Shown here piece after piece: positions 3,717 through 23,038 of a stretch of 26,789 nucleotides of DNA (position 1 is its first letter; each line of letters opens with the position of its first letter). Under the pieces are notes generated by a model that was not told the DNA's origin, did no database searches, and saw only the letters and a list, made by a program, of their open reading frames with translations. Location: IMG/VR virus record IMGVR_UViG_2568526722_000004, positions 1 to 26,789 of that record; one strand, written 5' to 3'. The translations under genes and the position numbers were made by a program. This DNA is from a virus (lineage: Duplodnaviria; Heunggongvirae; Uroviricota; Caudoviricetes).

Positions 3717-3719
3717 TAC

Positions 3720-8972: not shown

Positions 8973-8990
8973 AATGGTGCGATAATAGGA
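8973..8990. repeat. att core repeat (copy of the thrW 3' end): attR of element A and attL of element B
   Basis: AATGGTGCGATAATAGGA matches 25344-25362 AATGGTGCCGATAATAGGA (18/19, one C missing), same orientation. Confidence 0.7.
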
Positions 8991-9049
8991 ACAAATCAAA
9001 CCACATAACCAATTGATTTCTATTATATTTTTATGTTTTAGTTTTCAAC

Positions 9050-9070
9050 ATACCCCCAAAAGTACCCCCA
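9050..9070. repeat. 21-bp repeat ATACCCCCAAAAGTACCCCCA (candidate integrase arm-type site), copy 1
   Basis: Exact 21-bp direct repeat of 25211-25231; contains an internal TACCCCCA duplication; lies about 60 bp inside the left att core. Confidence 0.6.
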
Positions 9071-9307
9071 TAAGCGCCTGTATGATTAGACTCCGGGAAA
9101 AACATAAAAGCTATTCATTTAAGAGCTTTATGTCTTCATTCACTTTGTCAATTAAGAAAGATATCCAAACGAATAAAATTTCAATTTATTGAAGGCCATG
9201 TCATGTTTTCTATTTCTACAGTTTAAAAGTTTTATCATAACCTTCTGTTAGAACAGAATTAATTAGCAAAAAAACCCCAAGGGCATGAGGTTTTTTATTT
9301 TCCATTG

Positions 9308-10288
9308 TCATGCTAAAGCTCGAGCTACATTTTCTTTGATCGCAATAGCACAAGGAGTTTTGAACTTTTCTTTGCAACAGTGTAATAGCGTATTAATATT
9401 CAAATCAGTTTCAAGAATATTTTTTAGCTCACTCTTTCTTTCCGAGATTAAGGTTGGTTTATCTTTGCATTGTTTGACTATTAAGGCAGTTTCATTAATA
9501 TTCAATTGCTCTATCAATGATTTTATGACAGGCATGACAACTCTATCAGCTAAAAAATGACCATTGATATATTGATAGGCGTTATCTTCTCTCAATCCTT
9601 TATCATATAACTGCTCATAGAATTTATCAGCATCGTATTCATCTTGAATAAGGTTATCAAGTTTTTCTTCAATAACCGCTTTAGATTGCTGCATACTTTC
9701 AAATACAGCATTTTTGATAACAAATTGGTTCGTTAATCGTGGCACAGAAGGAGCAATCGCTTCATGGAAAACTGAGTCATCAAGTCTAACTTGATGCTGT
9801 TTAAGCAATAAAAATTTCTTCAGCACGGGGTAGATCAACCGTGAATACTCTGTAATGTATGCTGTAAAATCGAATTTAATTTCAGTAGCGATCTTTATTT
9901 GAGAAAGACAATACTCAAGGACTTCATGGTGTAACTCGATGCTCTCTTTTGAATATACAAATGTTTGAAAAATAAACTTGTTACTGCAAATTATCTCTGA
10001 GTCTGTACTGTTTTTAGGGCATAAATAATCAAAATCACTATCCATTGCAAATATGGCATATCGATTTGCTCGGCTCATGAATTTTTTTAATACTGGTTTC
10101 CCTTTTGTTCCTTTATTGGTAGGGTTACAAATATCAAAACGTATATCATTATCTTTATCGTTTAATAAGCCTTCCCAGAAAGAAATGTCTTTTAGACCTT
10201 CAACAAAGACAAAGCCATTGTGTCCAGCCATAATACAATATACCTGAAGATATTCTTCGCTAAAATTAATATCCTCAAACTCAGTCAT
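9308..10288 (-). CDS. ariB: AriB-like DUF4435/Toprim protein (PARIS defense system effector)
   Basis: 326-aa ORF overlapping the upstream ATPase gene by 8 nt; N-terminal Toprim-like features (MAGHNGFVFVEGLKD..., acidic AIFAMDSDFDY); low GC; the pairing with an ABC-type ATPase is the PARIS (AriA/AriB) architecture. Confidence 0.6.
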   Translation of the reverse strand: MTEFEDINFSEEYLQVYCIMAGHNGFVFVEGLKDISFWEGLLNDKDNDIRFDICNPTNKGTKGKPVLKKFMSRANRYAIFAMDSDFDYLCPKNSTDSEIICSNKFIFQTFVYSKESIELHHEVLEYCLSQIKIATEIKFDFTAYITEYSRLIYPVLKKFLLLKQHQVRLDDSVFHEAIAPSVPRLTNQFVIKNAVFESMQQSKAVIEEKLDNLIQDEYDADKFYEQLYDKGLREDNAYQYINGHFLADRVVMPVIKSLIEQLNINETALIVKQCKDKPTLISERKSELKNILETDLNINTLLHCCKEKFKTPCAIAIKENVARALA

Positions 10289-11276
10289 GAGAAGATTCCT
10301 TTGAAATATTTTTTATATCTACGAAAGAATCCATCCAGCCTTTCATTAATATTGCAGGACTATGAGTAACAATAATTAACTGACAATTATCGTTAATTGA
10401 TTTGATGGTGCTTATTAATCTTTCTTGCCACGTAAGGTGCAAGGATATTTCTGGCTCATCCATCAACAAGACAGATTCATCCAATGAAGTATTAGCTGTT
10501 TTAATCAGAATATATAACAACTGACGTTCACCTGATGAAAGAAGATTATACCTAATATCTTCACCAGAATCACTCATCTTAATAGAAATGTTACCATTAC
10601 TAAAAGAAACAACTTTGTTACATTCAGCAAATAAATTATTTATAGCTGATTCCAACTTATCCTTTATGAGAATACCTTTAGACTCACTTACTTTGAAAGT
10701 ATTCTTTAACCTTTCTAATTCACCAGCAATTTCCATATCAAGAATTGTGGTGCGCTCACCATCACTTTTTTTGAATTCATAGATGGAATTGGCACTCATA
10801 TTGATAGTTGATATTAACTCAACATTTATTCGCTTAGTGTTTTTAATATTATCACTTACGCTAACAGTTCCCATCCCGAACTCTTTAATTTCAGTGTCTT
10901 CTTTTTTCGATTCAAGCAACTCAATAAGTTCATTTAACTCCTTTATTTCCTTACCCTTTGATTTACCTTTAATACTGTTTTTCTTAAGGTTATTAAGTAG
11001 GTTTAGAAGCTGGACAGAGTCAATTTCGCGAAAATTAACTTTGTGAGTAATTGTGCCTCCATTGGCCAATGTTATTTGAGCCAACGCAGCATTACTTAAA
11101 CTTTCATTTAATTCTTGTTTTAAGAGGGCAAAAACACTTTGAATTATCGTGCTCTTACCTGAGCCATTTTTACCCACTAAAACATTCACATCTTTTAAAC
11201 TCCAATCAATGTCCTTCCGTTTAAAAAGACCTTTGATTGCTATATTTTTGATTATCGTCGCCACTCTCGTATCCAT
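10281..11276 (-). CDS. ariA: AriA-like ABC/AAA_15-21 ATPase (PARIS defense system sensor)
   Basis: 331-aa ORF; Walker A GKNGSGKST, signature-like LSSGERQLL, Walker B LLMDEPE, H-loop IIVTHS; low GC. Confidence 0.65.
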   Translation of the reverse strand: MDTRVATIIKNIAIKGLFKRKDIDWSLKDVNVLVGKNGSGKSTIIQSVFALLKQELNESLSNAALAQITLANGGTITHKVNFREIDSVQLLNLLNNLKKNSIKGKSKGKEIKELNELIELLESKKEDTEIKEFGMGTVSVSDNIKNTKRINVELISTINMSANSIYEFKKSDGERTTILDMEIAGELERLKNTFKVSESKGILIKDKLESAINNLFAECNKVVSFSNGNISIKMSDSGEDIRYNLLSSGERQLLYILIKTANTSLDESVLLMDEPEISLHLTWQERLISTIKSINDNCQLIIVTHSPAILMKGWMDSFVDIKNISKESSHD

Positions 11277-11653
11277 TATTATGAAAGTTGAAATGATTAT
11301 AACATGCTTAGCGTGCGCTTGGCATCTACCCTACAGTTGTTAGCAATAAACTTTATAACACAATGTAACACATTGAATTTAAACACTTAATATCAAATCC
11401 AACGCTAAACATCACGGAACCTGAAAGACTCTTGGCATTCTAGTTAGTACCTACTACGAAACGTTTTGAAAGGTTAAAGTGGACAGTCCGCATCAACTGT
11501 AACTTAAAATGCTCAGTAACGATGCATCTGCATGATTTGCAAAGTATGACAGAACTTCATTTGATGCTTTCACAAATGCGTGCCTGAAGTTTTCTAAAGC
11601 GGCGCGGTTAACTCTTTCTGGCTCAAAACCTTAATAAATCTGTATATCGCGGG

Positions 11654-11880
11654 TTGACACACTTGACACTTTTTCGGGAAAAACCTTAACAAAACTTAAC
11701 CTCCCCTGGCATTTCTAAGCATGGCAACTTGACACTTTTCGCGATTTTTTCGGCTTTTTGACGTGGTAAATCTGGCGAAAGGCCAGTAATGGCGCGGCTT
11801 ACAGCGAGGTTGACACTTTTTCGCGTTCAGAGTGTAAAGTGTCAACCTGGCAAGCTGCTCAACTTGACACTTTTTGATGT
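11654..11880. repeat. Array of TTGACAC(T)TTTT direct repeats plus one inverted copy
   Basis: GTTGACACACTTGACACTTTTTCGGG (~11654-11680), AACTTGACACTTTTCGCG (~11727), GGTTGACACTTTTTCGCG (~11808), inverted AGTGTAAAGTGTCAACC (~11831), AACTTGACACTTTTTGATG (~11862); immediately 3' of the 175-aa HTH gene. Confidence 0.55.
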
Positions 11881-12407
11881 CATTGATGGTCTGATTTTTC
11901 CCATTCAGCTAGGGCGTTTAGCCCGGCTTCACTCCATGATTCCAGTTCATCGGCATAATCACCTGCAACATAGCAGAGTTCGCAACGCAGCATACGAATT
12001 GCCAGCCTGGCATTACCTCGCAAATTGTATTTTTCAAAGTAATGCTGCCCTTCATCATCCTCAAGGCAGATAGCACCATCATCAAGAAAGTGCACTTCCC
12101 AGCCTAATTCCCCGGCTGCATCCAGCACACGCTGCTGTATGCCCTCGTCCGTTGCTGGCGCAGGAATTTTACCGCCTCTGGCCTTAACTGCTTTCCAGAA
12201 CTCGCCCCACGTCATTTCCAGCGTTCTTTCTGGCCACATTTCAGAAATGGTGTCTTTCCCCTGTGCTGGTGGGCTGTTCCGCTGCTCTGTCGCTTCCACA
12301 TCAATTTTTTTGCCAGACATGATCACTTCGCCTTTCTCGATCCAGTCGTAAACTGTCTGGCGGCTTACGCCTTTGTATTTGGCGTATTCGGCTTTACTCA
12401 TCAACAT
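11880..12407 (-). CDS. HTH-domain protein with terminase-small-subunit (Nu1)-like N-terminus; possible packaging or regulatory role
   Basis: 175-aa protein from the ATG at 12407 (GAGGTGA RBS 5 nt upstream); N-terminal MLMSKAEYAKYKGVSRQTVYDWIEKGEV resembles the winged-HTH of small terminase/Nu1-type proteins; the track's longer 202-aa form is an unlikely N-terminal extension. Confidence 0.5.
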   Translation of the reverse strand: MLMSKAEYAKYKGVSRQTVYDWIEKGEVIMSGKKIDVEATEQRNSPPAQGKDTISEMWPERTLEMTWGEFWKAVKARGGKIPAPATDEGIQQRVLDAAGELGWEVHFLDDGAICLEDDEGQHYFEKYNLRGNARLAIRMLRCELCYVAGDYADELESWSEAGLNALAEWEKSDHQ

Positions 12408-12506
12408 GTAGCTCACCTCATGCATATACGATAAAAAATAATTTAATGCGAAAAGGGAATGCGTTGTGGGTATGGAGGAAAGGGGCAATAACCGCCCCTT
12501 ACTGAT

Positions 12507-12779
12507 TCAGTTGCGCCAGGATGGCTGGCTAAGCGTGGTTTTCATTACATCATTGACGACCTGCTTTACGATTTCTGTGTTGGCAGTCGTGCTTTCAACA
12601 TCAACAAAGCCATAATCGCCAATTTCCACCGTCAGGGATTCCAGTTTCTTCCCCAGTGCATCAGGCAACTCTCCACTGAACCGGTGCCGAAGATTTTCCA
12701 CCAGCAAAGCCCTGAATGCCTCGCTGTTCTCTTTTTTCTGCCATAGCTGGCGTTTATCCACTCTGATATTTAATTTCAC
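12507..12779 (-). CDS. Hypothetical protein (90 aa)
   Basis: GTG start at 12779 overlapping the upstream stop (GTGA) and preceded by GAGGTGAGG; second gene of a three-gene operon. Confidence 0.45.
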   Translation of the reverse strand: MKLNIRVDKRQLWQKKENSEAFRALLVENLRHRFSGELPDALGKKLESLTVEIGDYGFVDVESTTANTEIVKQVVNDVMKTTLSQPSWRN

Positions 12780-12943
12780 AGCCTCACCTCTTTAAGTGCC
12801 TTATCCATCAGTTGCCGGGCAATAACATGAATCGACGGTGCCACACCAAGCACAGATTTCTGACGCTTTTCGGCCTGGATACGTTGCAGGGCTTCGATCT
12901 GCCCCCGGGAAAGTAAAACTGGCTTTACTCCGTGATTTTTCAT
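12776..12943 (-). CDS. Small putative DNA-binding protein (55 aa)
   Basis: ATG at 12943 with AAGGGA RBS; MKNHGVKPVLLSRGQIEALQRIQAEKRQKSVLGVAPSIHVIARQLMDKALKEVRL; palindromic operators lie just upstream; the track ORF 12776..13099 has a junk-like N-terminal extension. Confidence 0.45.
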   Translation of the reverse strand: MKNHGVKPVLLSRGQIEALQRIQAEKRQKSVLGVAPSIHVIARQLMDKALKEVRL

Positions 12944-12962
12944 GATGATCCCTTCTGAATGA

Positions 12963-13019
12963 CAATAATTGCAATTATTGCACAAATTGAAATAATACCA
13001 TCGATAATTGCAATAAATG
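12963..13019. promoter_or_regulatory. Palindromic operator candidates upstream of the 55-aa gene
   Basis: Perfect 18-bp palindrome CAATAATTGCAATTATTG (12963-12980) and related GATAATTGCAATAAATG (13003-13019) in an AT-rich region 20-80 bp upstream of the start at 12943. Confidence 0.5.
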
Positions 13020-13221
13020 AAACAAAAAGCATCAATAAACCAACCTTCGGCACTAAATGCTCTGATTTTTCTGCAAAGGTATGGCAGATGTTGCTGCATG
13101 CAAACATAAAGGAAATAGCAGAAGAAACAGCGGGGAGTGAAAAGGGGAAGTTTTTATAAATACACGATTGTCGCCTCACTGCAGGTTAACAGCCACAAAC
13201 CCCATGATAATAACTTGTTAA

Positions 13222-13545
13222 TTATTTCATCAGATTTTTCATTATTTGCGCGATTGAGTACACAAGCAAAAACTCGGCAGCCGCAAGAGTATAAAAAACA
13301 TAGATTCGCTTAGCCCACCGACGATGAAAGAACTCCTCAGCATGGCCGAATGTTCGAGATACAAGCCATGCACCTACTGCACACAGAGCAGGTGCAATGA
13401 GCACAGTTATAAACCAGATTGTGATGCCCATCCCATGCCTACTGATAATAGCCATTGGTATTGCAAAAATGAATGTTAGAGCAGCATTAGCTAATAGAAT
13501 ATCTTTTAAAGTATTTTCAATTAGTTTTTCTAGATTATCTTTCAT
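13222..13545 (-). CDS. Small integral membrane protein (about 3 TM helices)
   Basis: 107-aa ORF with hydrophobic segments (LLANAALTFIFAIPMAIISR, ITIWFITVLIAPALCAVGAWLV, IYVFYTLAAAEFLLVYSIAQI); AT-rich; directly downstream of the lipoprotein gene. Confidence 0.55.
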   Translation of the reverse strand: MKDNLEKLIENTLKDILLANAALTFIFAIPMAIISRHGMGITIWFITVLIAPALCAVGAWLVSRTFGHAEEFFHRRWAKRIYVFYTLAAAEFLLVYSIAQIMKNLMK

Positions 13546-13570
13546 CTAATCCCCCCCGTTGAACATTAAT

Positions 13571-13595
13571 ATATAAAAGCCCCTTACTAAGGGGC
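13571..13595 (-). terminator. Intergenic stem-loop with U-run between the lipoprotein and membrane-protein genes (terminator or attenuator)
   Basis: On the minus strand GCCCCT-UAGUA-AGGGGC followed by UUUUAUAUAUU; lies in the 64-bp gap between the two genes. Confidence 0.5.
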
Positions 13596-13609
13596 TTTGC
13601 ACGGATTGT

Positions 13610-14752
13610 TTAAAGGGAACTTTTTTTCGCCCCTTCAATTTCTTCCTGACAAATTTCGTCATTTGTAAATGAGTACTGCAGATAGACATATCCCTGAGTG
13701 GAATTGTTCGCTCTGGCCTCAATAGAGATAGTATCGATATTGTTTTTTAATGGTATTTCTTTTGTTCCCTTCCATGTGGCAGATAAGAAGCGTTCTTTTT
13801 TGTTTAGCCCCCTCATCCAGTCCTGAGGATCTTTCCAAATTGAACCAGCCAGCAAAAAGTCTGTAGTATCAGCCTTTCCATACAGAGAACTTAAAGAATT
13901 ACTCAATTCTTCAAACTTGGATTTAAGAGCCAATCCATAGCTATCAGTATCAATATTTTTTCCTAAAGCCCGTATTTGACATAAACCAGCTTTCGGGGAG
14001 ATCAACAAACCATACATTTCAAAATCTGCGTTTTGCTTCGGTAATTTATCAGAAGTATACAGATTCACACTGTCTGGTAGTGGCTTGAGCTTAGCACCGA
14101 TCATATCTTCGATGTTTTTCTGTGTAAGACCGGCTTCTAAGCCAAACGGACCATCCGCTGGCGGGAGTAAAGGAAGTTGCCCTTGGGAATTTTTGGCTGT
14201 TACTTCCGTTTCAGTACTGTTTTTTGCGTCATTATCTTGTACTGATGCCAGCTTAACTTCAGCGAGGCCATACTTGGCTGTGAGGTACTTTTGCTGCAAC
14301 ATTGCCATGGTCTGCTCTTCAGTGGCAACAGTAGATAATTTTAGTACCTTTATCAGACCACCACTATACTGACGAGCATCAGCTTTGGCTTCGTTGATTT
14401 TTGCATCTAAGCTGTCAATTTCAGTTTTAATTGAAGCCGCAAGCTCAGGATCAGGTTTTACTCCAGATACAACAACATCAATTTTGGCACCTGATTCAAT
14501 AGCATTAATACGCTGTTCCAAAAGCGCTTTATTAGTTCCTAATATTTCCAGTCTTGCTGTTGTCAGATTTTTTATCAACCCACCAGAAAACTGCTGGTCA
14601 ACTTCCTTAGCTGCTGATATTTCACCTTCCGTTTGCGACAGTTCAGCTTTAAGAGCCGCTACTTCCTGTTTCTGTTCTGGAGTTAACTCTTCTGGCCCAC
14701 ATCCGGTTAACATTACTATACCGACTAATGTTGCAATTAAAGTTTTATTCAT
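13610..14752 (-). CDS. Lipoprotein with internal tandem repeat, unknown function
   Basis: 380-aa ORF; signal peptide with lipobox (MNKTLIATLVGIVMLTGCG); two related ~55-aa repeats (…QQFSGGLIKNLTTARLEILGT… and …RQYSGGLIKVLKLSTVATEEQ…); AT-rich. Confidence 0.6.
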   Translation of the reverse strand: MNKTLIATLVGIVMLTGCGPEELTPEQKQEVAALKAELSQTEGEISAAKEVDQQFSGGLIKNLTTARLEILGTNKALLEQRINAIESGAKIDVVVSGVKPDPELAASIKTEIDSLDAKINEAKADARQYSGGLIKVLKLSTVATEEQTMAMLQQKYLTAKYGLAEVKLASVQDNDAKNSTETEVTAKNSQGQLPLLPPADGPFGLEAGLTQKNIEDMIGAKLKPLPDSVNLYTSDKLPKQNADFEMYGLLISPKAGLCQIRALGKNIDTDSYGLALKSKFEELSNSLSSLYGKADTTDFLLAGSIWKDPQDWMRGLNKKERFLSATWKGTKEIPLKNNIDTISIEARANNSTQGYVYLQYSFTNDEICQEEIEGAKKSSL

Positions 14753-14929
14753 ATCCCTATTCCAAATGAAAATATTCAGATTAATCTTATCAGGAACCCA
14801 GATGCAATTGAATATTCATCTGCTCAGCAACGTAGTAGATTTCCTCAGAAAGCATCAACAAAAAACCAAGAGAATCCCATCCTCTGTTACTGACTACAAT
14901 TGTTCTTTTTTTGGTATTTCCTGAATGCC

Positions 14930-15175
14930 TCACCATTGAGCTGATGTAATCCCATCCCGGCATGTGCCCGGCTGATGGTTTCGCGCATCTCCCCCGAAAT
15001 TATCCTGCCTTGCTGGTGGGCGTGCTGCCTTGTGGATACATTCCGCGCGACGTTTTGCCGCCTGTTCCCGTGCCTTGTCATCATTCGCCAGCATGATGAC
15101 CTCAGCCCACCGCGCCGCCGCTCTCCGGTACAGACCACGCGCTTCCAGTGCTTCCGCTTTGCTGTCGTGAATCAT
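14930..15175 (-). CDS. PerC-family transcriptional regulator-like protein
   Basis: 81-aa ORF with ATGA overlap to the upstream gene; MIHDSKAEALEARGLYRRAAARWAEVIM... resembles PerC/Pch-type proteins. Confidence 0.5.
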   Translation of the reverse strand: MIHDSKAEALEARGLYRRAAARWAEVIMLANDDKAREQAAKRRAECIHKAARPPARQDNFGGDARNHQPGTCRDGITSAQW

Positions 15176-15684
15176 GCGCCTATTGTCTCCTTTGCTGCCC
15201 GGCGCTGGCGTTTGCGCTTCTCATTCAGCGCCACCAGCCGCGTTTCTGCGTCCTGTTGTTCCTGTGGTGTCACCTCGCCGCACGGCTGGCCTTTCAGGTC
15301 GTAGCGTACCCCACCAGCCATTAAGGCGCGGTAATAGTGCGGACACTGCGCATAAGATGCCAGCGTCGCACGCAATGCCCCTGGCCCGAATGCCAGCCCC
15401 CTGACGGCGAGATCCTGCATCAGGTCGTCGAATATCCCCACCTTAAGCGGCTTCGGTGCTTCCCGGCTGAATAAGTCAGGCCACAACTCAGTGAGGCGGT
15501 TAACGCGCCTGCGGTTTTTGCGCTGGCGTTTGGTCATATGCCGCCACGGTGTCGCCCCTGTGGGCTTTTGCTGCGCTTTCTGGTTACCGGGCATCACTTT
15601 ATGCGCCGATGTGGTTTTATGATCTTACCCAGCAATAGTGGACACGCGGCTAAGTGAGTAAACTCTCAGTCAGAGGTGACTCAC

Positions 15685-15984
15685 ATGACAAAAACAGTAT
15701 CAACCAGTAAAAAACCCCGTAAACAGCATTCGCCTGAATTTCGCAGTGAAGCCCTGAAGCTTGCTGAACGCATCGGTGTTACTGCCGCAGCCCGTGAACT
15801 CAGCCTGTATGAATCACAACTCTACAACTGGCGCAGTAAACAGCAAAATCAGCAGACGTCTTCTGAACGTGAACTGGAGATGTCTACCGAGATTGCACGT
15901 CTCAAACGCCAGCTGGCAGAACGGGATGAAGAGCTGGCTATCCTCCAAAAGGCCGCGACATACTTCGCGAAGCGCCTGAAATGA
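15685..15984 (+). CDS. insE: IS3 transposase OrfA (InsE)
   Basis: 99-aa product [32 protein letters not shown]... with AGGTGA RBS; matches IS3 InsE from memory. Confidence 0.9.
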
Positions 15985-16847
15985 AGTATGTCTTTATTGA
16001 AAAACATCAGGCTGAGTTCAGCATCAAAGCAATGTGCCGCGTGCTCCGGGTGGCCCGCAGCGGCTGGTATACGTGGTGTCAGCGGCGGACAAGGATAAGC
16101 ACGCGTCAGCAGTTCCGCCAACACTGCGACAGCGTTGTCCTCGCGGCTTTTACCCGGTCAAAACAGCGTTACGGTGCCCCACGCCTGACGGATGAACTGC
16201 GTGCTCAGGGTTACCCCTTTAACGTAAAAACCGTGGCGGCAAGCCTGCGCCGTCAGGGACTGAGGGCAAAGGCCTCCCGGAAGTTCAGCCCGGTCAGCTA
16301 CCGCGCACACGGCCTGCCTGTGTCAGAAAATCTGTTGGAGCAGGATTTTTACGCCAGTGGCCCGAACCAGAAGTGGGCAGGAGACATCACGTACTTACGT
16401 ACAGATGAAGGCTGGCTGTATCTGGCAGTGGTCATTGACCTGTGGTCACGTGCCGTTATTGGCTGGTCAATGTCGCCACGCATGACGGCGCAACTGGCCT
16501 GCGATGCCCTGCAGATGGCGCTGTGGCGGCGTAAGAGGCCCCGGAACGTTATCGTTCACACGGACCGTGGAGGCCAGTACTGTTCAGCAGATTATCAGGC
16601 GCAACTGAAGCGGCATAATCTGCGTGGAAGTATGAGCGCAAAAGGTTGCTGCTACGATAATGCCTGCGTGGAAAGCTTCTTTCATTCGCTGAAAGTGGAA
16701 TGTATCCATGGAGAACACTTTATCAGCCGGGAAATAATGCGGGCAACGGTGTTTAATTATATCGAATGTGATTACAATCGGTGGCGGCGGCACAGTTGGT
16801 GTGGCGGCCTCAGTCCGGAACAATTTGAAAACAAGAACCTCGCTTAG
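15981..16847 (+). CDS. insF: IS3 transposase OrfB (InsF), DDE catalytic domain; expressed as OrfAB by -1 frameshift
   Basis: 288-aa ORF overlapping the orfA stop (ATGA); DDE-type integrase core (…HTDRGGQY…, …[11 protein letters not shown]…). Confidence 0.9.
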
Positions 16848-16982
16848 GCCTGTGTCCATATTACGTGGGTAGGATCATTATCCTGCTCCTGCGCCGCCTG
16901 CGTCGTTTTCTGCGGCGTGCCGTAAATGCCTTTCGGTTTTCTGTTAATGGTCAGCTTAGTCATGCTTTGCCCCATCGTTACA

Positions 16983-17316
16983 ACTGTCTACCAACTGTCT
17001 ACCGATATAATTGTTTGATTTATTTAATGTTATTAATACATAACAAAAAAACAATCTGCAAACTGTCTACCAACTCTCTACAGTATTAATACATTGATAA
17101 TTAATGACTTTTACTAAATGGTAGACAGTGTAGATAGTTAAAAGAAAAATTTTAAAAATGAACCCATAACTATCTATTTTTAGATACCCCCGTGGTTTAG
17201 AAATATAAAATAAACTGTCCACCTCTCTACCACATTAAAAATACCTATATAATTCAAAACATTAATTAGTAGATGGTTGGTAGAGGGTTAAGTGTATCTG
17301 TCTACCAACCGTCTAC
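16983..17316. repeat. Iteron-like repeat array in AT-rich DNA downstream of the primase gene (candidate replication origin)
   Basis: CTGTCTACCAACTGTCTACC (16983-17002), CTGTCTACCAACTCTCTAC (17063-17081), inverted GGTAGACAGTGTAGATAG (~17120), CTGTCCACCTCTCTACCAC (~17215), inverted GGTTGGTAGAGGG (~17276), CTGTCTACCAACCGTCTAC (17298-17316). Confidence 0.6.
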
Positions 17317-17344
17317 TTTTAAGTTTCAACTTATAAATTTCGTA

Positions 17345-19150
17345 TCATGTTCTGTCGTTAATGCCTGCCGTTGCTGGTAACCATCCATCAGCATCTTTAT
17401 CTAACAGAACATTTGTGATCGTTCGCCCTTTATCTGGACCTTTAGTGCATTTAGCCCGCTTGTACTCCTTTCCGTACTCAGCCATTGCCCCTGGCATATC
17501 TGTACCAAAGCGTGTCAGTGATACCGGTTTTCCCAGACCATGCGCAGACATATAAGCCAAATAAGCATGATACAGATATCGCCTCGGACTAAATGGCACT
17601 ATTTCTGCATTACCTACTATCATTCCCTCACATTTAACCAACGACATCAGATAACCGCAGAAGTCCACCAGCGAATCACCTTCACGCTTTATCAACAGTG
17701 CTTCTTCTGATTTTTGCTGCTCATAAAGTAGTCTTTTCGCTTCGTCCTGGTCGGCAAATCGTGTAAGCAAATGGCGAATCACTACTGCCAGTTCCCCTTC
17801 TATCTTTTTCGCCAGCATCGGATCGCGTTCGTTCTCTGGTACAACCTCAGAGAAATTAAATATTACTCGTCGACGCGAGATCCCCCCACTACGGTCGCTG
17901 AATGACATGGCATAATTGTTTACTGCCAGCACTACCGCAGGAACGCGCGTGGAATAGGGCGCTTTGTGTTTCGGATCGATAGCCACCTTGTCACCGCCTG
18001 TAATGGCCTTAATCCCAGCACCATCACCTGCGTAGCGGGTCATGTCAGGCATGATAATCAGAGAATATCCCACCACTAACGCTCGTTCCCTCGCGTCTTC
18101 CAGCGCCTTCATGCTCGCCGATACTGTATTGGCCTTACCCGCCAGCATGGTACAAATCTCCGCCATCACACTTTTACCGCTTCCGCCCGGCCCCGTTACC
18201 TCAAGGAATAACTGCCAGTCGTACCGGTTCGCCAGTACCATGAATAATGCCGCCAGTACGCGATCCGCTTTACGAGCATTATCCGCCACCGAACGACGCA
18301 ACCACTTCCAGAAATTCGGCGCATGTGTTGCCAGCGTTTCCCCCTCTTCTGGCGGGCTGAACGGTAATTCACTGGCATTTAACAACCAGTCATTTTTGTT
18401 GTGTTCCCGAAAATTTCCTGTCCTGATATCAAAAACACCGTTACTGAACCCAATAAGATTTCTGTCCGCTCCCCCCATAACAGGTAGACTCAATTTCATT
18501 GTCTCTACGGCAAATTTAATGGCGTTTTGCGAATAACTAATTTCGGCATCAATAAAAATCTTCGCCATAGACCGCTGGAGTTCCTTATCAGATACAGGCT
18601 CCCAAACAATTCCGTTGTAATGGTGAACTACATCAGAATCATCATTTATCGCCAGTGCTCCTCCATAATGTTCAAGTAACACTTCCCCTCTCTGGCTGGC
18701 TCCCATCTGATTTAATGCAGGCTTGGGTAGACCACTATTTTTTGTAGCTAATTTCATCACTGAAACTTCCCCGTGCTCAGCCTGTTCGCGGATCCGTTGC
18801 AGGTAGTCGCGCCAGTTCTCCGGTTCCTGGTCGGTGATACCTTTGTATAATTTCGCCTCCTGTACGCCAGCCAGCGCCAGCTTTTCAGCGATAGTATTGA
18901 TCTGGATTGGCTCTATCTCCCCCGCGATATAGACACGCGCAAAACGGCGTTTCTCGTCAATAATGCGGATATTCGCCAGGTCTGCCAGTTGCTTTGGCCC
19001 CAGGTAAACAGGAGGCACGTTATCGCCGTGTTTTCGTCCTTCACTTTCAATCCAGTGTTGAGCATGGGCGTAAGCATCCATCCCGGCAAAAATGATTACC
19101 TCAGTGAATTTATCCTTCGGCTGATATTTTAGACTCGGTGCGTTTTTCAC
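17345..19150 (-). CDS. Replication primase/helicase-like protein (P4 alpha / D5-type SF3 NTPase family)
   Basis: 601-aa ORF; Walker A in ...LEVTGPGGSGKSVMAE...; last gene of a tightly coupled operon; followed by the iteron array. Confidence 0.7.
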   Translation of the reverse strand: MKNAPSLKYQPKDKFTEVIIFAGMDAYAHAQHWIESEGRKHGDNVPPVYLGPKQLADLANIRIIDEKRRFARVYIAGEIEPIQINTIAEKLALAGVQEAKLYKGITDQEPENWRDYLQRIREQAEHGEVSVMKLATKNSGLPKPALNQMGASQRGEVLLEHYGGALAINDDSDVVHHYNGIVWEPVSDKELQRSMAKIFIDAEISYSQNAIKFAVETMKLSLPVMGGADRNLIGFSNGVFDIRTGNFREHNKNDWLLNASELPFSPPEEGETLATHAPNFWKWLRRSVADNARKADRVLAALFMVLANRYDWQLFLEVTGPGGSGKSVMAEICTMLAGKANTVSASMKALEDARERALVVGYSLIIMPDMTRYAGDGAGIKAITGGDKVAIDPKHKAPYSTRVPAVVLAVNNYAMSFSDRSGGISRRRVIFNFSEVVPENERDPMLAKKIEGELAVVIRHLLTRFADQDEAKRLLYEQQKSEEALLIKREGDSLVDFCGYLMSLVKCEGMIVGNAEIVPFSPRRYLYHAYLAYMSAHGLGKPVSLTRFGTDMPGAMAEYGKEYKRAKCTKGPDKGRTITNVLLDKDADGWLPATAGINDRT

Positions 19151-19437
19151 TTCTTACCTCCCGCAACCAACATTGCCCGGATTTTTTTAATATTCGTGGC
19201 TGCACGTCTCGCCACTGCCTGTTGTTTGTTTTCCACCACAATAAAATCACGATCAAACTGACGGCGCGGCATTACGCAGTCATATTCGTAAGCCTCACGG
19301 CGGTAGGTGATATTGCCTGGCGTAACGTGACGAATAACCACCCGTCCCCCGCGTCTGGTGTCCCGGAAAATATCACCGGGGCGGATTTCAGGCCGAGAGA
19401 GGCCGCTGGCAGTAAAGCCAGAATTTTTCTTTTTCAT
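19147..19437 (-). CDS. Hypothetical protein (replication operon)
   Basis: 96-aa ORF whose stop overlaps the primase start (ATGA). Confidence 0.45.
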   Translation of the reverse strand: MKKKNSGFTASGLSRPEIRPGDIFRDTRRGGRVVIRHVTPGNITYRREAYEYDCVMPRRQFDRDFIVVENKQQAVARRAATNIKKIRAMLVAGGKK

Positions 19438-19441
19438 GGTT

Positions 19442-19642
19442 TTATTTTCCTGTCAGCAGTTCCGGTTTTATTTCCGCACGAATACAAAGTTCAGAAAAAA
19501 ATTCAGGAGAACCAACAATCTCATTACTTTTCAGTCGGCATTGTGATTTCACTTTCCCTTTATCCAGGTAAACCAGTACGCGTCCGGTGAAATCATCTGG
19601 CACATTAAGCACTACGGGTACATGCGCTTCATGATTATGCAT
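19442..19642 (-). CDS. Hypothetical protein (replication operon)
   Basis: 66-aa ORF; start overlaps the upstream stop by 8 nt. Confidence 0.4.
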   Translation of the reverse strand: MHNHEAHVPVVLNVPDDFTGRVLVYLDKGKVKSQCRLKSNEIVGSPEFFSELCIRAEIKPELLTGK

Positions 19643-19868
19643 GGCTTACATCCTCCGTGAATTTTCTTCTGTAACGCGTCTCTGCCACATATTCCGCATA
19701 GTCCGACGCAATACTAAGAATCATTTCACCCTCTGACTTGTAGCCACTGGTATTGATAAGAAAATATGCAGCTTTCATCATGTCAGCAACGCTCAACAAT
19801 GCGCCCGCTGCATCTTCCGGTGCGCCATCAAATTCCCGTTTCAGGGAATTAAAACGATCATCACGCAT
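19635..19868 (-). CDS. Hypothetical protein (replication operon)
   Basis: 77-aa ORF; start overlaps the upstream stop by 8 nt. Confidence 0.4.
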   Translation of the reverse strand: MRDDRFNSLKREFDGAPEDAAGALLSVADMMKAAYFLINTSGYKSEGEMILSIASDYAEYVAETRYRRKFTEDVSHA

Positions 19869-20226
19869 GTTTACCCCCCTGAATGACCTGATAACCGCAA
19901 CTGGTCAGCAACTCGATAAATTCCGGCAGTGTGCCGAAACAGCAATCATCACGCAGCCGTTCGCGGGATACTTCAACGCCGTTTTCGTAGTGACTCACCA
20001 TACGCCCGGTAAAATGCAGATCATCATCGTGATGGCTCGTTGACGGCTTAATCAGTCGCGCACGTTCCGCCAGTTCCAGCAATGCTTCAACGCTTCCGGC
20101 AATTGCACCATCCGGCAGGTGGTAATTACGCACTATGCGCCCGTTCTCCACATTGACCAGCAACTGCCCGGTAAATTTCTCGTCAAACTGAATGCTGTTA
20201 AGGTCAGAAATTGACAGGTTATGCAT
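19861..20226 (-). CDS. Hypothetical protein (replication operon)
   Basis: 121-aa protein from the second ATG (20226), which has a perfect AGGAGG RBS 6 nt upstream; the track start at 20244 is less likely. Confidence 0.45.
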   Translation of the reverse strand: MHNLSISDLNSIQFDEKFTGQLLVNVENGRIVRNYHLPDGAIAGSVEALLELAERARLIKPSTSHHDDDLHFTGRMVSHYENGVEVSRERLRDDCCFGTLPEFIELLTSCGYQVIQGGKHA

Positions 20227-20443
20227 GGTGCACCTCCTGCACATCAGCCATGATAATTTTTCCGGCCTTATCCAGTGCCTGATCGGCTTTTAGCTGCACA
20301 AATGCTAAATAATGGGAGATGCATTCTGATTCTCTGGCTGCGTGTTTATGCGCCACACCAGCGATAGCAGAAATCTCAATAAGTGAATCCATCAGCGTTT
20401 TGATAGCGTCTACCGCTGCATCAGGCCATGTTGCATTACACAT
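20219..20443 (-). CDS. Hypothetical protein (replication operon)
   Basis: 74-aa ORF; start overlaps the upstream stop by 8 nt. Confidence 0.4.
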   Translation of the reverse strand: MCNATWPDAAVDAIKTLMDSLIEISAIAGVAHKHAARESECISHYLAFVQLKADQALDKAGKIIMADVQEVHHA

Positions 20444-20639
20444 GTTCCACCTCCTGGCGAATACGGGCGGCGAATACCATCACGCAGCCATCAGGAGATT
20501 GCTGGCGTGCTTCCTGTTCGCTGGTGGCCTCGATGTGAATTACGCGCGGTTGTGCCGTGCTCAGGGCGATAAAACGCCAGATGTATTTATTCAGGTTGTG
20601 CGAGTCCCGCCCTTGCGGGTGTGTGGTATGATTTCTCAT
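20436..20639 (-). CDS. Hypothetical protein, first gene of the replication operon
   Basis: 67-aa product from the ATG at 20639 with GAGGT RBS, just downstream of the operator region; it is the plausible C-terminal segment of the 435-aa track ORF. Confidence 0.4.
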   Translation of the reverse strand: MRNHTTHPQGRDSHNLNKYIWRFIALSTAQPRVIHIEATSEQEARQQSPDGCVMVFAARIRQEVEHV

Positions 20640-20735
20640 AGCTACCTCGATACTCTTGCTATCGTTGGTGGTTAGACGCCCTGCATGTGTGCCACCACTG
20701 CGGGGCGTTGTCGTTTCTGCACCTTGCATCAACAA

Positions 20736-20789
20736 GGTGTTGAACACCAATTTAAGCCCAGGTGTTAAACACGTCAAGTGTTGAACACT
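20736..20789. promoter_or_regulatory. Three 13-bp palindromic operators (GTGTT-N-AACAC) in a divergent promoter region
   Basis: GGTGTTGAACACC (20736-20748, perfect), GGTGTTAAACACG (20761-20773), AGTGTTGAACACT (20777-20789, perfect); between the RHH gene (20839, +) and the replication operon (20639, -). Confidence 0.6.
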
Positions 20790-20838
20790 TATTTTTTTTC
20801 CTGCATACTGCATTTGTTTTTTGTAAGGGGTACACAAC

Positions 20839-21018
20839 ATGGCGACAAAAGCAGTAAACGCAAAATCACAAACAGTTGCGGCAAGGGTTCCGCATGAAGT
20901 TATGAACAATGTTGAGGCGGTAAAAATGCCTGGTGAAAGTACAGGGCAGTTTGTAACAGCAGCATTAAAGCGAGAAGTTGAATACCGCCAGCGCCGCAAG
21001 GCCAAAGAACAGGAGTAA
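20839..21018 (+). CDS. Ribbon-helix-helix (Arc/CopG-like) small DNA-binding protein, candidate repressor
   Basis: 59-aa ORF (below the track's length cutoff) read by hand: MATKAVNAKSQTVAARVPHEVMNNVEAVKMPGESTGQFVTAALKREVEYRQRRKAKEQE; beta-strand/helix/helix pattern; AGGGG RBS-like upstream; only gene on the opposite strand in this block. Confidence 0.5.
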   Translation: MATKAVNAKSQTVAARVPHEVMNNVEAVKMPGESTGQFVTAALKREVEYRQRRKAKEQE

Positions 21019-21329
21019 CCATCACCAGCGCCGTGGTGTGAGGAACTACGGTGCATCGTTTTACAGGGCTGCGCCATGACCAACAAAAAATCAACCAATA
21101 CACCATCACCGGCACGGAAAAGACAGCGCAGAAAGATAGCGTACGAGCATGAGTCAAACAGATTCGCGCCCTGTGCGTTTATCCTTGAGAAATTCCTTAA
21201 AGAGTACAGGCGCACAAAAATGGGGTCGCATACCTGGAAAACATCGCGGCATGGCAATGTTAAAGAGCAGGAATAGCCCACCAGCAAGCCAGCATATTCA
21301 CCATAATGACCCTCAGTTAAACATAGAGT

Positions 21330-21743
21330 CATTGGTGCAAAGCTGACACATTGCCCACCAGCCGCAAATCTGGCATTGTTGGCGATGCGTTCAAGTATGT
21401 AGCTTTCCCACTGGCGGCCCTCTGCGGTCGCCTTTGTTTTATCCAGAACGAAATCAGACATCAGATTGATCAGCACCTGGCGACCTGACAAAATCGCATC
21501 AGTCGCGCCACCAGCAAAATTTTTTGCTTTCCGGACAGTGTGACCAACGACATTTTGCAGCAAAATATTCTGCATTTCTGGCGTGCTGTAGTAACGGTGA
21601 TCAGCGCCTTCACTCTGTGCGACCACAACGCTATAATCTGCCTCGTAGACAGTAAGCAATATGGCGCAGTAGGCTATTCGTTCACAAAGGCGCTCCGGCA
21701 ACGGGGCGCTTTCTCTTTTTGTAACGGTCAGAGCGTTACACAT
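21330..21743 (-). CDS. Hypothetical protein co-transcribed with the antirepressor; 3' end undefined
   Basis: ATG at 21743 overlaps the antirepressor stop by 8 nt; the first ~140 codons look protein-like, but the frame has no stop until 20436 and runs through the + strand RHH gene and operators, so the true end is unknown (21330 is arbitrary). Confidence 0.3.
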
Positions 21744-22536: not shown

Positions 22537-22613
22537 AAAAACTCCTGCTATCGAATTAAGTTACTTTTATTTGCTGGTGGATAGCTGGGGGCAATAGCCC
22601 CGTAGCCATTTAA

Positions 22614-22811
22614 TCAGGTAGCTGTTCCGCGTGATTCCGCAATACGCTGATTAATCCACTCGTCAATTTCACTCTCAACGAAAGCAATAGCTCGCGAGCC
22701 AATTTTAACTGATGCAGGAAATTTACCTTGCCCCATAAGGCGATAAATCCATGCCTTGCTATATCCAGTTCTACGCTGAACTTCTGTTAAACGAATAAGC
22801 GTATTTGACAT
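22614..22811 (-). CDS. alpA: AlpA-family phage transcriptional regulator
   Basis: 65-aa ORF: MSNTLIRLTEVQRRTGYSKAWIYRLMGQGKFPASVKIGSRAIAFVESEIDEWINQR, a typical AlpA HTH; sits downstream of a P4-type integrase. Confidence 0.8.
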   Translation of the reverse strand: MSNTLIRLTEVQRRTGYSKAWIYRLMGQGKFPASVKIGSRAIAFVESEIDEWINQRIAESRGTAT

Positions 22812-23023: not shown

Positions 23024-23038
23024 ATGCGGTATGGTGCG

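What the first reader, a model, noticed from the sequence alone, without database searches (positions are those of the whole stretch)
13222..14752. AT-rich two-gene cassette: repeat-containing lipoprotein plus small membrane protein, candidate undescribed phage-exclusion/defense module
A 380-aa lipoprotein (lipobox LTGC, two internal ~55-aa repeats sharing a SGGLIK core, a distinct C-terminal half) is followed 64 bp downstream by a 107-aa three-helix membrane protein, with a GC-rich stem-loop plus U-run between them. Both genes are markedly AT-rich and sit in the cargo arm of a satellite-like island alongside a PARIS-like system; such hotspots are known to concentrate anti-phage genes. I do not recognise either protein as a member of a named defense family, so this pair is the best candidate in the window for an undescribed envelope-acting system.
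Basis: partly seen in the sequence, partly recalled or inferred. Interest (0 to 1): 0.72.

Follow-up and report, generated by a model that had tools for sequence, protein, structure and literature searches.

The report
Mobile lipoprotein gene, likely phage-exclusion
The two genes are real, but they are two independently mobile single-gene add-ons of phages and phage satellites rather than a two-part system. The larger one is an uncharacterised outer-membrane lipoprotein that repeatedly sits beside phage DNA-injection (tape-measure) genes, so it is a testable candidate for blocking entry of rival phages.

Summary
The element is a 16.4-kb EcCIMP1-type PICI satellite at tRNA-Thr.

The "two-gene system" reading fails:
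- 64 of 91 LP loci lack the 107-aa gene, including LPs 86–88% identical to this one.
- Distant 107-aa relatives occur alone after PICI primases in Citrobacter, Yersinia and Hafnia.
- The LP is a self-contained moron. It carries a conserved promoter-like block and its own terminator in nearly every context, and it is absent as a clean 1.8-kb indel from a sister island.

The LP recurs after PICI primases and inside λ-like prophage tail modules next to the tape-measure gene, which is the HK97 gene-15 slot. The position after its terminator holds interchangeable small inner-membrane proteins, one of them a Pfam Imm_superinfect member.

No match to Pfam, NCBIfam, PADLOC or PDB sequences was found for either LP module, although the family spans 2,853 clusters. 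The C-domain fold resembles Mog1/PsbP/DcrB only weakly.

Best guess (about 0.4): envelope-level superinfection exclusion aimed at phage DNA delivery. This is untested.

The parts
13610..14752 (-). LP gene: a 380-aa lipoprotein, probably sorted to the outer membrane (Gly at +2). It is the core of the finding.
   Evidence: ORF. More than 320 full-length homologs across Enterobacterales. dN/dS 0.05. No match in any curated family library.
14699..14752 (-). Signal peptide and lipobox (residues 1-18, L-T-G-C18). The mature N-terminus is CGPEE, with no Asp at +2.
   Evidence: Read directly from the sequence. G17, C18, G19 and P20 are invariant in alignment A1. Outer-membrane sorting is inferred from the established Lol +2 rule.
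14462..14680 (-). N-module repeat 1 (residues 25-97): a helix-turn(FSGGLIK)-helix hairpin followed by a short strand.
   Evidence: AF2 model with H25-54, H59-87 and E93-97. Repeat statistics z≈9.
14249..14449 (-). N-module repeat 2 (residues 102-168): a second hairpin (YSGGLIK) followed by a short strand.
   Evidence: The N-module occurs fused to other C-terminal domains in other proteins.
14159..14248 (-). Variable, disordered linker (residues 169-198) ending in LLPP.
   Evidence: pLDDT below 50. These are the least conserved columns in A1.
13613..14158 (-). C-terminal α/β domain (residues 199-380). It starts with GPFGLEAGLT and has invariant C258 and C368.
14778..14792 (-). Promoter-like element: an extended -10 (TGATAAGAT, 14784-14792) overlapping a perfect 10-bp palindrome (AGATTAATCT, 14778-14787), about 26-40 nt upstream of the ATG.
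   Evidence: This roughly 45-bp block is conserved upstream of the LP in unrelated contexts. Both palindrome arms have changed symmetrically relative to the GGATTAATCC seen in other loci. Promoter or operator function is inferred, and the σ70 scan with its -35 requirement did not call it.
13576..13598 (-). Intrinsic terminator that ends the LP transcription unit.
   Evidence: 10-bp stem plus T-rich tail. ΔG -14.5 kcal/mol, z -3.4. Analogous hairpins with different sequences follow the LP stop codon in PICI, prophage and chromosomal contexts.
13222..13545 (-). The 107-aa small inner-membrane protein (three predicted TM segments, with an R/K-rich loop at residues 64-80). It is an independent accessory gene stacked behind the LP.
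   Evidence: ORF and hydropathy. dN/dS 0.16-0.19. The family has 35 members, and distant members stand alone after a PICI primase and origin.
14849..14858 (-). Left copy of the 10-bp direct repeat TTGATGCTTT at the border of the 1.8-kb LP+107-aa indel.
   Evidence: Junction alignment against strain 67-1, which lacks the block. The repeat occurs 3 times in the window, against 0.14 expected.
13026..13035 (-). Right copy of the 10-bp direct repeat at the indel border.
14930..15175 (-). Context: PerC-family regulator gene directly upstream (backbone gene).
   Evidence: Pfam PerC E=1.2e-22. The same PerC-LP order is seen in Pantoea septica L036.
12776..12943 (-). Context: a 55-aa backbone gene that marks the downstream edge of the accessory slot.
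   Evidence: Its homolog follows the LP directly (+170 to +191 bp) in L030, L036, L070 and L071. It follows the Imm_superinfect gene in satellite-B, and it follows the lone 107-aa-like gene in L094/95.
9308..11276 (-). Context: PARIS (AriA 10281-11276, AriB 9308-10288) at the distal end of the PICI.
   Evidence: PADLOC AriA E=2.6e-43, AriB E=3.6e-22; Pfam AAA_21/AAA_15 and DUF4435.
8981..25362 (-). Context: the whole PICI, from the att core repeat at 8981-8990 to the copy at 25353-25362 inside tRNA-Thr (25346-25421). It contains int, an AlpA-like gene, AntA, primase, origin iterons (16982-17316), an IS3-type insertion, ProQ/FinO, PerC, the LP, the 107-aa gene and PARIS.
   Evidence: The att core and chromosomal site are the same as for EcCIMP1 (PMC11773190).

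Best explanation
Shown. The 380-aa gene encodes a lipoprotein whose periplasmic part is two helical hairpins, a flexible linker and a novel α/β domain; the outer-membrane anchor is inferred from the absence of Asp at +2. The gene is a self-contained moron: it has a conserved promoter-like block, its own terminator and low GC, and it is present or absent as a clean indel. It has been shuffled among PICI satellites, where it sits just after the primase/origin or after PerC, and λ-like prophage tail modules, where it sits next to the tape-measure gene. The 107-aa gene is a second, independently mobile small inner-membrane protein that has landed behind the LP terminator in one lineage (E. coli, Edwardsiella, Klebsiella, Yokenella).

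Inferred. The LP is expressed from the resident prophage or satellite and acts in the periplasm to exclude superinfecting phages after adsorption. It would do this by interfering with the trans-periplasmic DNA-delivery conduit, which is built from the tape-measure protein in siphoviruses and from ejection proteins in P22-like phages. In function it would be the Gram-negative counterpart of the Ltp lipoprotein or of HK97 gp15. The 107-aa protein would act separately at the inner membrane, in the manner of Imm, SieA or gp15, giving a layered barrier rather than an obligate complex.
For: Moron anatomy:
- A terminator follows the LP stop codon in nearly all contexts, with non-homologous hairpins.
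- A roughly 45-bp upstream block with an extended -10 and a palindrome travels with the gene.
- GC is 40%, against 46% for the window and 51-61% in the PerC/ProQ/IS region just upstream.
- E. coli strain 67-1 has the same PerC|55-aa backbone without the 1.8-kb block.

Context:
- Of 64 LP loci without the 107-aa gene, 33 have a tape-measure homolog within 3 kb.
- In L078/L079/L081-L084 the LP stop lies 65-95 bp from the TMP start. In L032 the order is TMP-LP-gpM.
- This matches the slot of the archetypal moron HK97 gene 15, a DNA-entry exclusion protein (PMC3594210).
- The position after the LP terminator is alternately empty or filled by different small inner-membrane proteins: the 107-aa protein, a Pfam Imm_superinfect + Zn-ribbon protein (59 bits, 10 loci), or a 2-TM Zn-ribbon protein.
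- The sibling PICI EcCIMP1 carries P22-type ejection-protein homologs in the equivalent slot, and it confers an unexplained superinfection immunity.

Defence genes recur nearby: PARIS here; PD-Lambda-4_A, PD-T4-5-like, Old and PDC-S20/PifA-like elsewhere. A secreted C-domain homolog sits inside a Deinococcus type I-E cas operon.

Precedents for exclusion proteins that target the tape-measure protein or ejection proteins are Ltp, gp15, SieA (PMC10883804) and SNIPE (PMC13190303).
Against: - There is no experimental evidence for this family, and no sequence or convincing structural homology to any known exclusion protein.
- The family is broad (2,853 clusters). It includes chromosomal, non-mobile members in Alphaproteobacteria and elsewhere, so the domain is not intrinsically anti-phage.
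- No match was found in 50,697 sequenced phage genomes.
- The loci sampled are neither phylogenetically independent nor randomly chosen.
- In the satellites, linkage to the tape-measure gene may partly reflect backbone synteny.
- Promoter activity and expression in the lysogenic state have not been shown.
Confidence: 0.4

Rival explanations
1. One reading: the LP and the 107-aa protein form one obligate two-component, envelope-spanning defence system, with an outer-membrane/periplasmic sensor or blocker and an inner-membrane partner or effector.
For: In the lineages where the LP is at least 80% identical, the two genes keep the same order and a 64-69-bp spacer (87 bp in Yokenella) in 27 loci. 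In E. coli they are gained or lost together as one 1.8-kb block. In satellite-B and in some prophages a different small inner-membrane protein follows the LP, so an LP plus inner-membrane-protein pairing is a recurring theme.
Against: 64 of 91 LP loci lack the small gene, including LPs 86-88% identical to this one (L023, L025-27). In four loci the slot is empty. 107-aa homologs stand alone in Citrobacter, Yersinia and Hafnia PICIs. A strong terminator separates the two genes. By the hydropathy-based topology inferred here, the small protein exposes only about 6 and about 8 residues to the periplasm, leaving little surface for contact with the LP. The Yokenella copy appears truncated.
Confidence: 0.1
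2. Lysogenic-conversion or host-fitness factor unrelated to phages. In this reading the LP is an envelope lipoprotein moron that alters serum resistance, adhesion, permeability or envelope-stress signalling, in the manner of Bor, TraT/Iss or Lom.
For: The moron anatomy is the same as for bor and lom (PMC3594210). The cassette is present in pathogenic E. coli lineages, including 55989 and HUSEC2011. It sits next to a PerC-family regulator. The N-terminus carries an LTPEQ motif with a sub-threshold LTXXQ (Spy/CpxP) match (13.3 against a cut-off of 24.3 bits).
Against: The family is equally common in plant-, insect- and environment-associated Enterobacterales such as Pantoea, Xenorhabdus, Lonsdalea and Rahnella. 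It is repeatedly placed beside tape-measure genes, an Imm_superinfect gene and defence systems. There is no homology to Bor, TraT or Lom.
Confidence: 0.2
3. Orphan immunity or protection protein against periplasm-acting toxins, such as colicins, T6SS or Rhs effectors, or lysozyme-like enzymes.
Against: The structural similarity is weak and belongs to a very common fold class. No cognate toxin gene is adjacent in the window, in the PICIs or in the prophages. Immunity genes normally travel with their toxin.
Confidence: 0.12
4. A life-cycle function for the carrier element. The LP would assist the element's own DNA delivery, tail function or release, or it would protect progeny virions from inactivation by receptors on lysed-cell debris, as T5 Llp does.
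For: The LP is tightly adjacent to tape-measure genes in prophages and in satellite-B PICIs that encode their own TMP_3 protein.
Against: The LP is exported through the Sec and lipoprotein pathways, so it cannot be a virion component. It has its own terminator, and apparently its own promoter, inside late operons. It is dispensable in sister islands and phages. It also occurs at chromosomal, non-phage loci.
Confidence: 0.1

Closest known systems
HK97 gp15 moron (superinfection exclusion, inner membrane)
   Same: Single-gene moron with its own transcription signals and atypical GC, inserted in the tail operon beside the tape-measure gene (PMC3594210). In L078/L079/L081-L084 the LP lies immediately upstream of the tape-measure gene, at the downstream edge of a multi-gene moron block. 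gp15 exclusion depends on the tail and tape-measure proteins of the incoming phage.
   Different: gp15 is a small YebO-like inner-membrane protein. The LP is a 380-aa lipoprotein with a large periplasmic part and no sequence similarity to gp15. Function is shown for gp15 and only inferred here.
Ltp of Streptococcus phage TP-J34 (lipoprotein that targets the tape-measure protein)
   Same: A prophage-encoded, lipid-anchored protein with a flexible spacer and an internal duplication. It blocks DNA injection, and the tape-measure protein has been identified as its target (cited in PMC10883804).
Cor (φ80/N15/HK022) and Llp (T5) outer-membrane lipoproteins
   Same: Phage-encoded outer-membrane lipoproteins in Gram-negative hosts, genetically linked to tail or receptor-binding genes, that exclude superinfecting phages (PMC3594210).
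   Different: They are small (about 60-80 aa, from memory) and act by blocking the FhuA receptor at the adsorption step. The LP is five times larger and has a different architecture. Its linkage is to tape-measure genes rather than to receptor-binding proteins.
T4 Imm / Pfam PF14373 Imm_superinfect, and P22 SieA
   Same: Small inner-membrane proteins that block DNA entry. An Imm_superinfect-family gene occupies the same position after the LP in satellite-B PICIs as the 107-aa gene does here. SieA targets the ejection-protein conduit (PMC10883804).
   Different: The 107-aa protein does not match PF14373 or any other model. It has three predicted TM segments rather than two and lacks a Zn-ribbon.
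EcCIMP1 and related thrW-integrated PICIs
   Same: The chromosomal site (tRNA-Thr next to proA), the att core (TCCTATTATC) and the general gene complement (int, AlpA, AntA, a primase, PerC) are the same, although the primases are of different types (D5-like here, TOPRIM/DUF927 in EcCIMP1). EcCIMP1 confers unexplained superinfection immunity (PMC11773190).
   Different: EcCIMP1 has neither the LP nor the 107-aa gene. Its accessory slot holds P22-like ejection-protein homologs.
Periplasmic proteins with a Mog1/PsbP/DUF1795-like fold (DcrB, LpqN, PA1624, Eag chaperones, T6SS immunity proteins)
   Different: Sequence identity is only 4-14% and the scores are low. The characteristic GPFGL N-terminus and the two invariant cysteines are specific to this family.

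Membership tests
Bacterial lipoprotein (Lgt/LspA substrate) | An N-terminal signal peptide ending in the lipobox [LVI][ASTVI][GAS]C. | tested here: met
   MNKTLIATLVGIVMLTG|C18. G17 and C18 are invariant in 26 homologs. Outer-membrane sorting (Gly at +2, no Asp) follows from the established Lol rule and was not tested.
Moron (Juhala/Hendrix definition) | Inserted between genes that are adjacent in related genomes. | tested here: met
   In strain 67-1, PerC directly abuts the 55-aa gene. The 1.8-kb block is absent there and is flanked here by a 10-bp direct repeat.
Moron (Juhala/Hendrix definition) | Its own terminator and promoter. | tested here: inconclusive
   The terminator is clearly present and recurs across contexts. 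A conserved block resembling an extended -10 lies upstream, but no -35 was called and there are no expression data.
Moron (Juhala/Hendrix definition) | Base composition different from the flanking genes. | tested here: met
   GC 40.2% and GC3 33%, against 46% for the window and 51-61% in the 500-bp bins covering PerC/ProQ and the IS. The gene is also the lowest-GC stretch of the L082 tail module.
Obligate two-gene defence system (LP + 107-aa) | Conserved co-occurrence of both genes across lineages. | tested here: not met
   LP without the partner in 64 of 91 loci. Partner without the LP in L094-L098.
Known anti-phage systems (PADLOC-DB v2) | A significant match to any system component model. 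| tested here: not met
   Zero families at E≤1 for both proteins.
Known exclusion or conversion lipoproteins (Cor, Llp, Ltp, TraT, Bor) | Sequence or structural homology. | tested here: not met
Pfam PF14373 Imm_superinfect (for the 107-aa protein) | A match above the gathering threshold (27.9 bits). | tested here: not met
   No hit at E≤1. By contrast, the positional analog in L013 scores 59.1 bits.
Class I holin or spanin (lysis proteins) | Homology to holin or spanin families, and location in a lysis cassette. | tested here: not met
   No Pfam or PHROG match. The neighbouring genes are PerC and small backbone genes, with no endolysin.
LTXXQ / Spy-CpxP family (N-module) | A Pfam PF07813 match above 24.3 bits. 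| tested here: not met
   13.3 bits, E=0.14, over residues 23-86. An LTPEQ motif is present, but this is a lead only.
SadB/YajI lipoprotein family (the name one source gave to a homolog) | A match to the NCBIfam or Pfam model. | tested here: not met
   The name appears for one cluster member. No such model matched the window protein at E≤1.
PICI satellite (the element that carries the genes) | An int, an AlpA-type regulator, a primase/replication gene with origin iterons, att repeats at a tRNA, and no structural or lysis genes. | tested here: met
   The att core and chromosomal site are the same as for the experimentally mobilised EcCIMP1 (PMC11773190). Mobilisation of this particular island was not tested.

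The most novel reading that the evidence does not exclude
The LP would be the first Gram-negative, outer-membrane-anchored, periplasm-acting exclusion protein that intercepts the tape-measure or ejection-protein DNA conduit. Its two unannotated modules (2,853 clusters at 50% identity, including a secreted homolog embedded in a type I-E cas operon) would then define a widespread, previously unrecognised class of envelope-level antiviral domains. The small inner-membrane proteins behind it would form a swappable second layer.
Probability: 0.22. Interest if true: 0.75.

Novelty: new variant of a known kind. Interest (0 to 1): 0.5.

Why it matters
- Passage of phage DNA across the Gram-negative periplasm is the least understood step of infection, and few host or prophage factors are known to act there. 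This is a conserved, easily cloned single gene that is genetically tied to tape-measure genes in many prophages, so it offers a direct experimental handle.
- The gene is common in clinical Enterobacter, Klebsiella, Salmonella and E. coli, including the 55989/O104:H4 lineage. If it excludes phages it would matter for phage-therapy host range.
- Two abundant domain families currently have no Pfam model or solved structure.
- The result defines a small accessory slot, between the primase/PerC genes and the 55-aa gene, in EcCIMP1-type PICIs. This slot is distinct from the terminal hotspot that holds PARIS.
- If the LP has no phage phenotype, it is simply one more uncharacterised envelope moron.

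Tried and rejected
- Curated libraries. Pfam, NCBIfam, PADLOC and PHROGs gave nothing at or above threshold for either protein. Panels of distant relatives gave no family that covers either module.
- PDB sequence searches, with the single sequence and with a profile, gave nothing relevant.
- Foldseek against PDB with the full model gave no hit below E=0.04. The afdb50 library was unavailable.
- tblastn against 50,697 phage genomes found no match.
- Literature searches by protein accession and by topic found no description of either family. The Tai tail-assembly-interference systems are different: no lipoprotein is mentioned in the text, and the genes lie upstream of the packaging module.
- A holin or spanin role for the small protein was considered and rejected, because there is no homology and no lysis context.
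- A Spy/CpxP-like N-module was considered and rejected as sub-threshold.
- I checked whether a diverged, unrecognisable small membrane ORF follows the LP elsewhere. It does not do so consistently.
- I recalled that the palindrome resembles an RcsAB box. This rests on memory only and was not tested.
Full report
**1.

The window has a 380-aa ORF at 13610-14752(-) and a 107-aa ORF at 13222-13545(-), separated by 64 bp.

- The larger protein begins MNKTLIATLVGIVMLTG|C. This lipobox and the following Gly-Pro are invariant in 26 homologs.
- Residues 32-81 and 106-155 are a genuine internal repeat centred on (F/Y)SGGLIK. The local score is 76, against 27.5±5.3 for shuffles.
- The small protein has three hydrophobic segments.
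- The spacer holds a 10-bp GC-rich hairpin with a T-rich tail. Its ΔG is -14.5 kcal/mol, z=-3.4.
- Both genes are about 39-40% GC with GC3 about 33%. The window is 46% GC, and the 500-bp bins covering PerC/ProQ and the IS (15001-16500) are 51-61%.
- Both genes are under purifying selection. dN/dS is 0.05 for the lipoprotein and 0.16-0.19 for the small gene at dS>1, so the small ORF is a real gene.

**2. Where it sits**

The DNA is E. coli. The block occurs in 113 of 5,426 complete genomes, always on the chromosome.

The element is a PICI-type satellite integrated at tRNA-Thr next to proA.
- Its borders are the att core TCCTATTATC at 8981-8990 and 25353-25362.
- This is the same site and the same core as the experimentally mobilised EcCIMP1 (PMC11773190).
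- Reading from the tRNA, the order is: int, a 267-aa gene, an AlpA-like gene, AntA, primase, origin iterons, an IS3-type insertion, ProQ/FinO, PerC, LP, the 107-aa gene, a 55-aa gene, a 90-aa gene, an HTH_17 gene, then PARIS at the distal end.

**3. The two genes are not a system**

The LP family has more than 320 full-length members across Enterobacterales. The small-protein family has only 17 members by single-sequence search and 35 by profile search.

I collected 91 LP-bearing loci from look-ups, species genomes and IMG/VR. Of these, 27 carry the 107-aa gene 67-87 bp downstream, and all 27 come from lineages where the LP is at least 80% identical to this one.

The other 64 lack it.
- They include LPs that are 86-88% identical (E. 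cancerogenus, Pseudenterobacter, Enterobacter sp., C. amalonaticus).
- A scan for any small membrane ORF downstream found no consistent substitute.

The reverse also holds. 107-109-aa relatives at 51-57% identity sit alone, directly after the primase and origin iterons, in PICIs of Citrobacter, Yersinia and Hafnia. There is no LP remnant in those loci at tblastn E<1.

A terminator also separates the two genes. The pair is therefore two independent accessory genes stacked together in one lineage.

**4. The LP is a complete moron cassette**

- An intrinsic terminator follows the LP stop codon in nearly every context: PICIs, prophage tail operons and chromosomal sites. The hairpin sequences differ between contexts.
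- A roughly 45-bp upstream block, CTGATAGGATTAATCCGAAT…GGGATAGGGATATG, is conserved across otherwise unrelated flanks. It contains an extended -10-like TGnTAGGAT and a perfect palindrome. In the window both palindrome arms have changed symmetrically, to AGATTAATCT.
- E. coli strain 67-1 has the same backbone, but PerC abuts the 55-aa gene. The 1.8-kb block is missing there, and here it is bounded by a 10-bp direct repeat.
- The slot between PerC or the primase and the 55-aa gene is a small accessory site that takes several states:
  - empty;
  - LP alone (L030, L036, L070, L071);
  - the 107-aa-like gene alone (L094/95);
  - LP plus the 107-aa gene (this lineage);
  - LP plus an Imm_superinfect gene (satellite-B).

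**5. Recurrent contexts**

The first context is PICIs, where the LP lies directly after the primase/origin or after PerC. Examples are E. hormaechei, Yersinia, Lonsdalea, Pantoea septica and Enterobacter.

The second is λ-like prophage tail modules.
- In L078/L079/L081-L084 the LP stop is 65-95 bp from the start of an 1,111-aa tape-measure gene, at the end of a low-GC moron cluster.
- In Pseudocitrobacter and Xenorhabdus the order is TMP-(…)-LP-gpM.
- Of the 64 loci without the small gene, 33 have a tape-measure homolog within 3 kb.

The position beside the tape-measure gene matches the slot of the archetypal moron, HK97 gene 15. Its product blocks DNA entry in a way that depends on the incoming tail (PMC3594210).

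In satellite-B PICIs the gene after the LP is a true Pfam Imm_superinfect + Zn-ribbon membrane protein (59 bits), present in 10 loci. In four prophages a 2-TM Zn-ribbon protein lies between the LP and the TMP.

The sibling PICI EcCIMP1 lacks the LP. It carries P22-type ejection-protein homologs in the equivalent region and shows unexplained superinfection immunity.

Known or candidate defence genes recur nearby.
- PARIS in this window.
- A full-length PD-Lambda-4_A and a PD-T4-5-like gene, Old, and a PDC-S20/PifA-like NTPase in other loci.
- BREX next to an N-module protein.
- A secreted C-domain homolog inside a Deinococcus type I-E cas operon.

**6. What the protein looks like**

- AlphaFold2 gives two helix-turn-helix hairpins, each followed by a short strand, then a disordered linker and a confident α/β C-domain.
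- A profile search of 1.84 billion representative proteins finds 2,853 clusters and shows that the halves are separable.
  - The C-domain occurs alone in many secreted proteins of about 200 aa, with GPFGL immediately after the signal peptide.
  - The N-module is fused to other periplasmic domains (VasI-like, peptidoglycan-binding).
  - Some versions are TM-anchored.
- In Azospirillum the two modules are encoded by adjacent genes.
- Neither module has a Pfam model or a PDB relative by sequence.
- The N-module matches only generic helical bundles.

**7. Most likely mechanism**

Shown: the gene encodes an exported, lipid-anchored protein, and it behaves as a horizontally shuffled moron of temperate phages and their satellites. 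Outer-membrane anchoring is inferred from the Lol +2 rule.

Inferred, at confidence of about 0.4: the LP is expressed from the resident element and uses its tethered periplasmic C-domain to interfere with the DNA-delivery conduit of superinfecting phages. That conduit is built from the tape-measure protein or from ejection proteins. In function the LP would parallel Ltp, gp15 and SieA (PMC10883804) and, in concept, SNIPE (PMC13190303). The 107-aa protein would be a separate inner-membrane barrier.

This rests on context and analogy alone. There is no homology to any known exclusion protein, and the domain family is much broader than mobile elements.

Rival readings are a Bor/TraT-like host-fitness factor (0.2), an orphan immunity protein against periplasmic toxins (0.12), an obligate two-gene system (0.1) and a life-cycle function for the carrier element (0.1).

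**8. Novelty and verdict**

No paper in the searched library describes either family, and no curated family model matched.

As a kind of thing, a prophage- or satellite-borne envelope moron is well known. What is new is the architecture, the size, the linkage to tape-measure genes and the swappable inner-membrane partner slot. I rate it a new variant of a known kind, with interest 0.5.

Caveats:
- The loci are redundant and were not sampled at random.
- The structural models are of moderate confidence.
- The promoter and operator assignments are inferences.
- Nothing about function has been tested.

Noticed in passing
window 1-8980 (int 7797-8960 +; S24 repressor 3006-3680; DUF2303 5424-6248; HD/YfbR-like 6349-6912): A second integrative element lies in tandem with the PICI. 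Its integrase gene ends 20 bp from the shared att core copy at 8981-8990, and the element carries a LexA/CI-like S24 repressor. The thrW site therefore appears to hold two elements side by side.
   Followed up: partly
window 15676-16847 (orfA 15676-15984, orfB 15981-16847): An IS3-family insertion (orfA/orfB) lies between ProQ/FinO and the origin iterons. The ProQ/FinO ORF is 141 aa here, against 176 aa in strain S40, which lacks the IS. The IS ends were not mapped.
   Followed up: partly
window 16982-17316: Four or more copies of the iteron CTGTCTACCAAC(T/C)GTCTAC lie just downstream of the primase gene. This is probably the PICI replication origin. Analogous iterons (GAACCAAC, GAGACAACA) precede the lone 107-aa-like genes in L094-L097.
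   Followed up: partly
window 9050-9070 and 25211-25231: An exact 21-nt direct repeat (ATACCCCCAAAAGTACCCCCA) lies just inside both ends of the PICI. It could be an integrase arm-type binding site.
   Followed up: no
window 22894-22959 and 22986-23024: A tandem 33-bp repeat and a pair of 17-bp repeats lie in the intergenic region between the 267-aa gene and the AlpA-like gene. This is probably the regulatory region of the PICI master switch.
   Followed up: no
window 14778-14787 (and the homologous position in L006, L023, L026): A perfect 10-bp palindrome overlaps the putative -10 of the LP gene. It reads GGATTAATCC in other loci and AGATTAATCT here, so a symmetric double substitution has preserved the palindrome. 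From memory it resembles an RcsAB box. It is a possible operator.
   Followed up: partly
L040 (E. coli MP1, EcCIMP1) 12632-18649: Where other PICIs carry the LP, EcCIMP1 carries homologs of podovirus DNA-ejection proteins (a 'phage DNA ejection protein', a lytic-transglycosylase-domain protein and a DUF2824 protein). These are candidates for the unexplained superinfection immunity to the P22-like helper Kapi1 reported for that island.
   Followed up: no
L013 9789-12584, and L061-L071, L075, L036: A family of DUF927-primase PICIs encodes its own tape-measure-like protein of about 930 aa (Pfam TMP_3, E=2.9e-51), downstream of the LP, 55-aa and 109-aa genes. A tail-length-determinant gene is unusual cargo for a satellite.
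   Followed up: partly
L042 (Deinococcus geothermalis pDGEO01) 4944-5528: A secreted homolog of the LP C-domain (38% identity) is encoded between cas6e and cas1e of a type I-E CRISPR-Cas operon.
   Followed up: partly
L043 (Azospirillum oryzae) 4461-6154 and L044 (Agrobacterium larrymoorei) 4998-6163: The N-module and the C-domain are encoded by two adjacent genes rather than one fused gene. This supports a functional link between the two modules.
   Followed up: no
L001 (E. coli S40) 10681-12288 versus window 9308-11276: The terminal accessory position that holds PARIS in this window holds two different hypothetical genes (259 and 275 aa) in strain S40. The island's distal end is therefore a variable hotspot, separate from the LP slot.
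   Followed up: no
L023 (E. cancerogenus) 1375-6250: A full-length PD-Lambda-4_A homolog (PADLOC E=0), followed by a DUF2335 gene, lies immediately upstream of the LP. A PD-T4-5/AbiD-like gene and a colicin-like tRNase bacteriocin with its immunity gene are nearby.
   Followed up: partly
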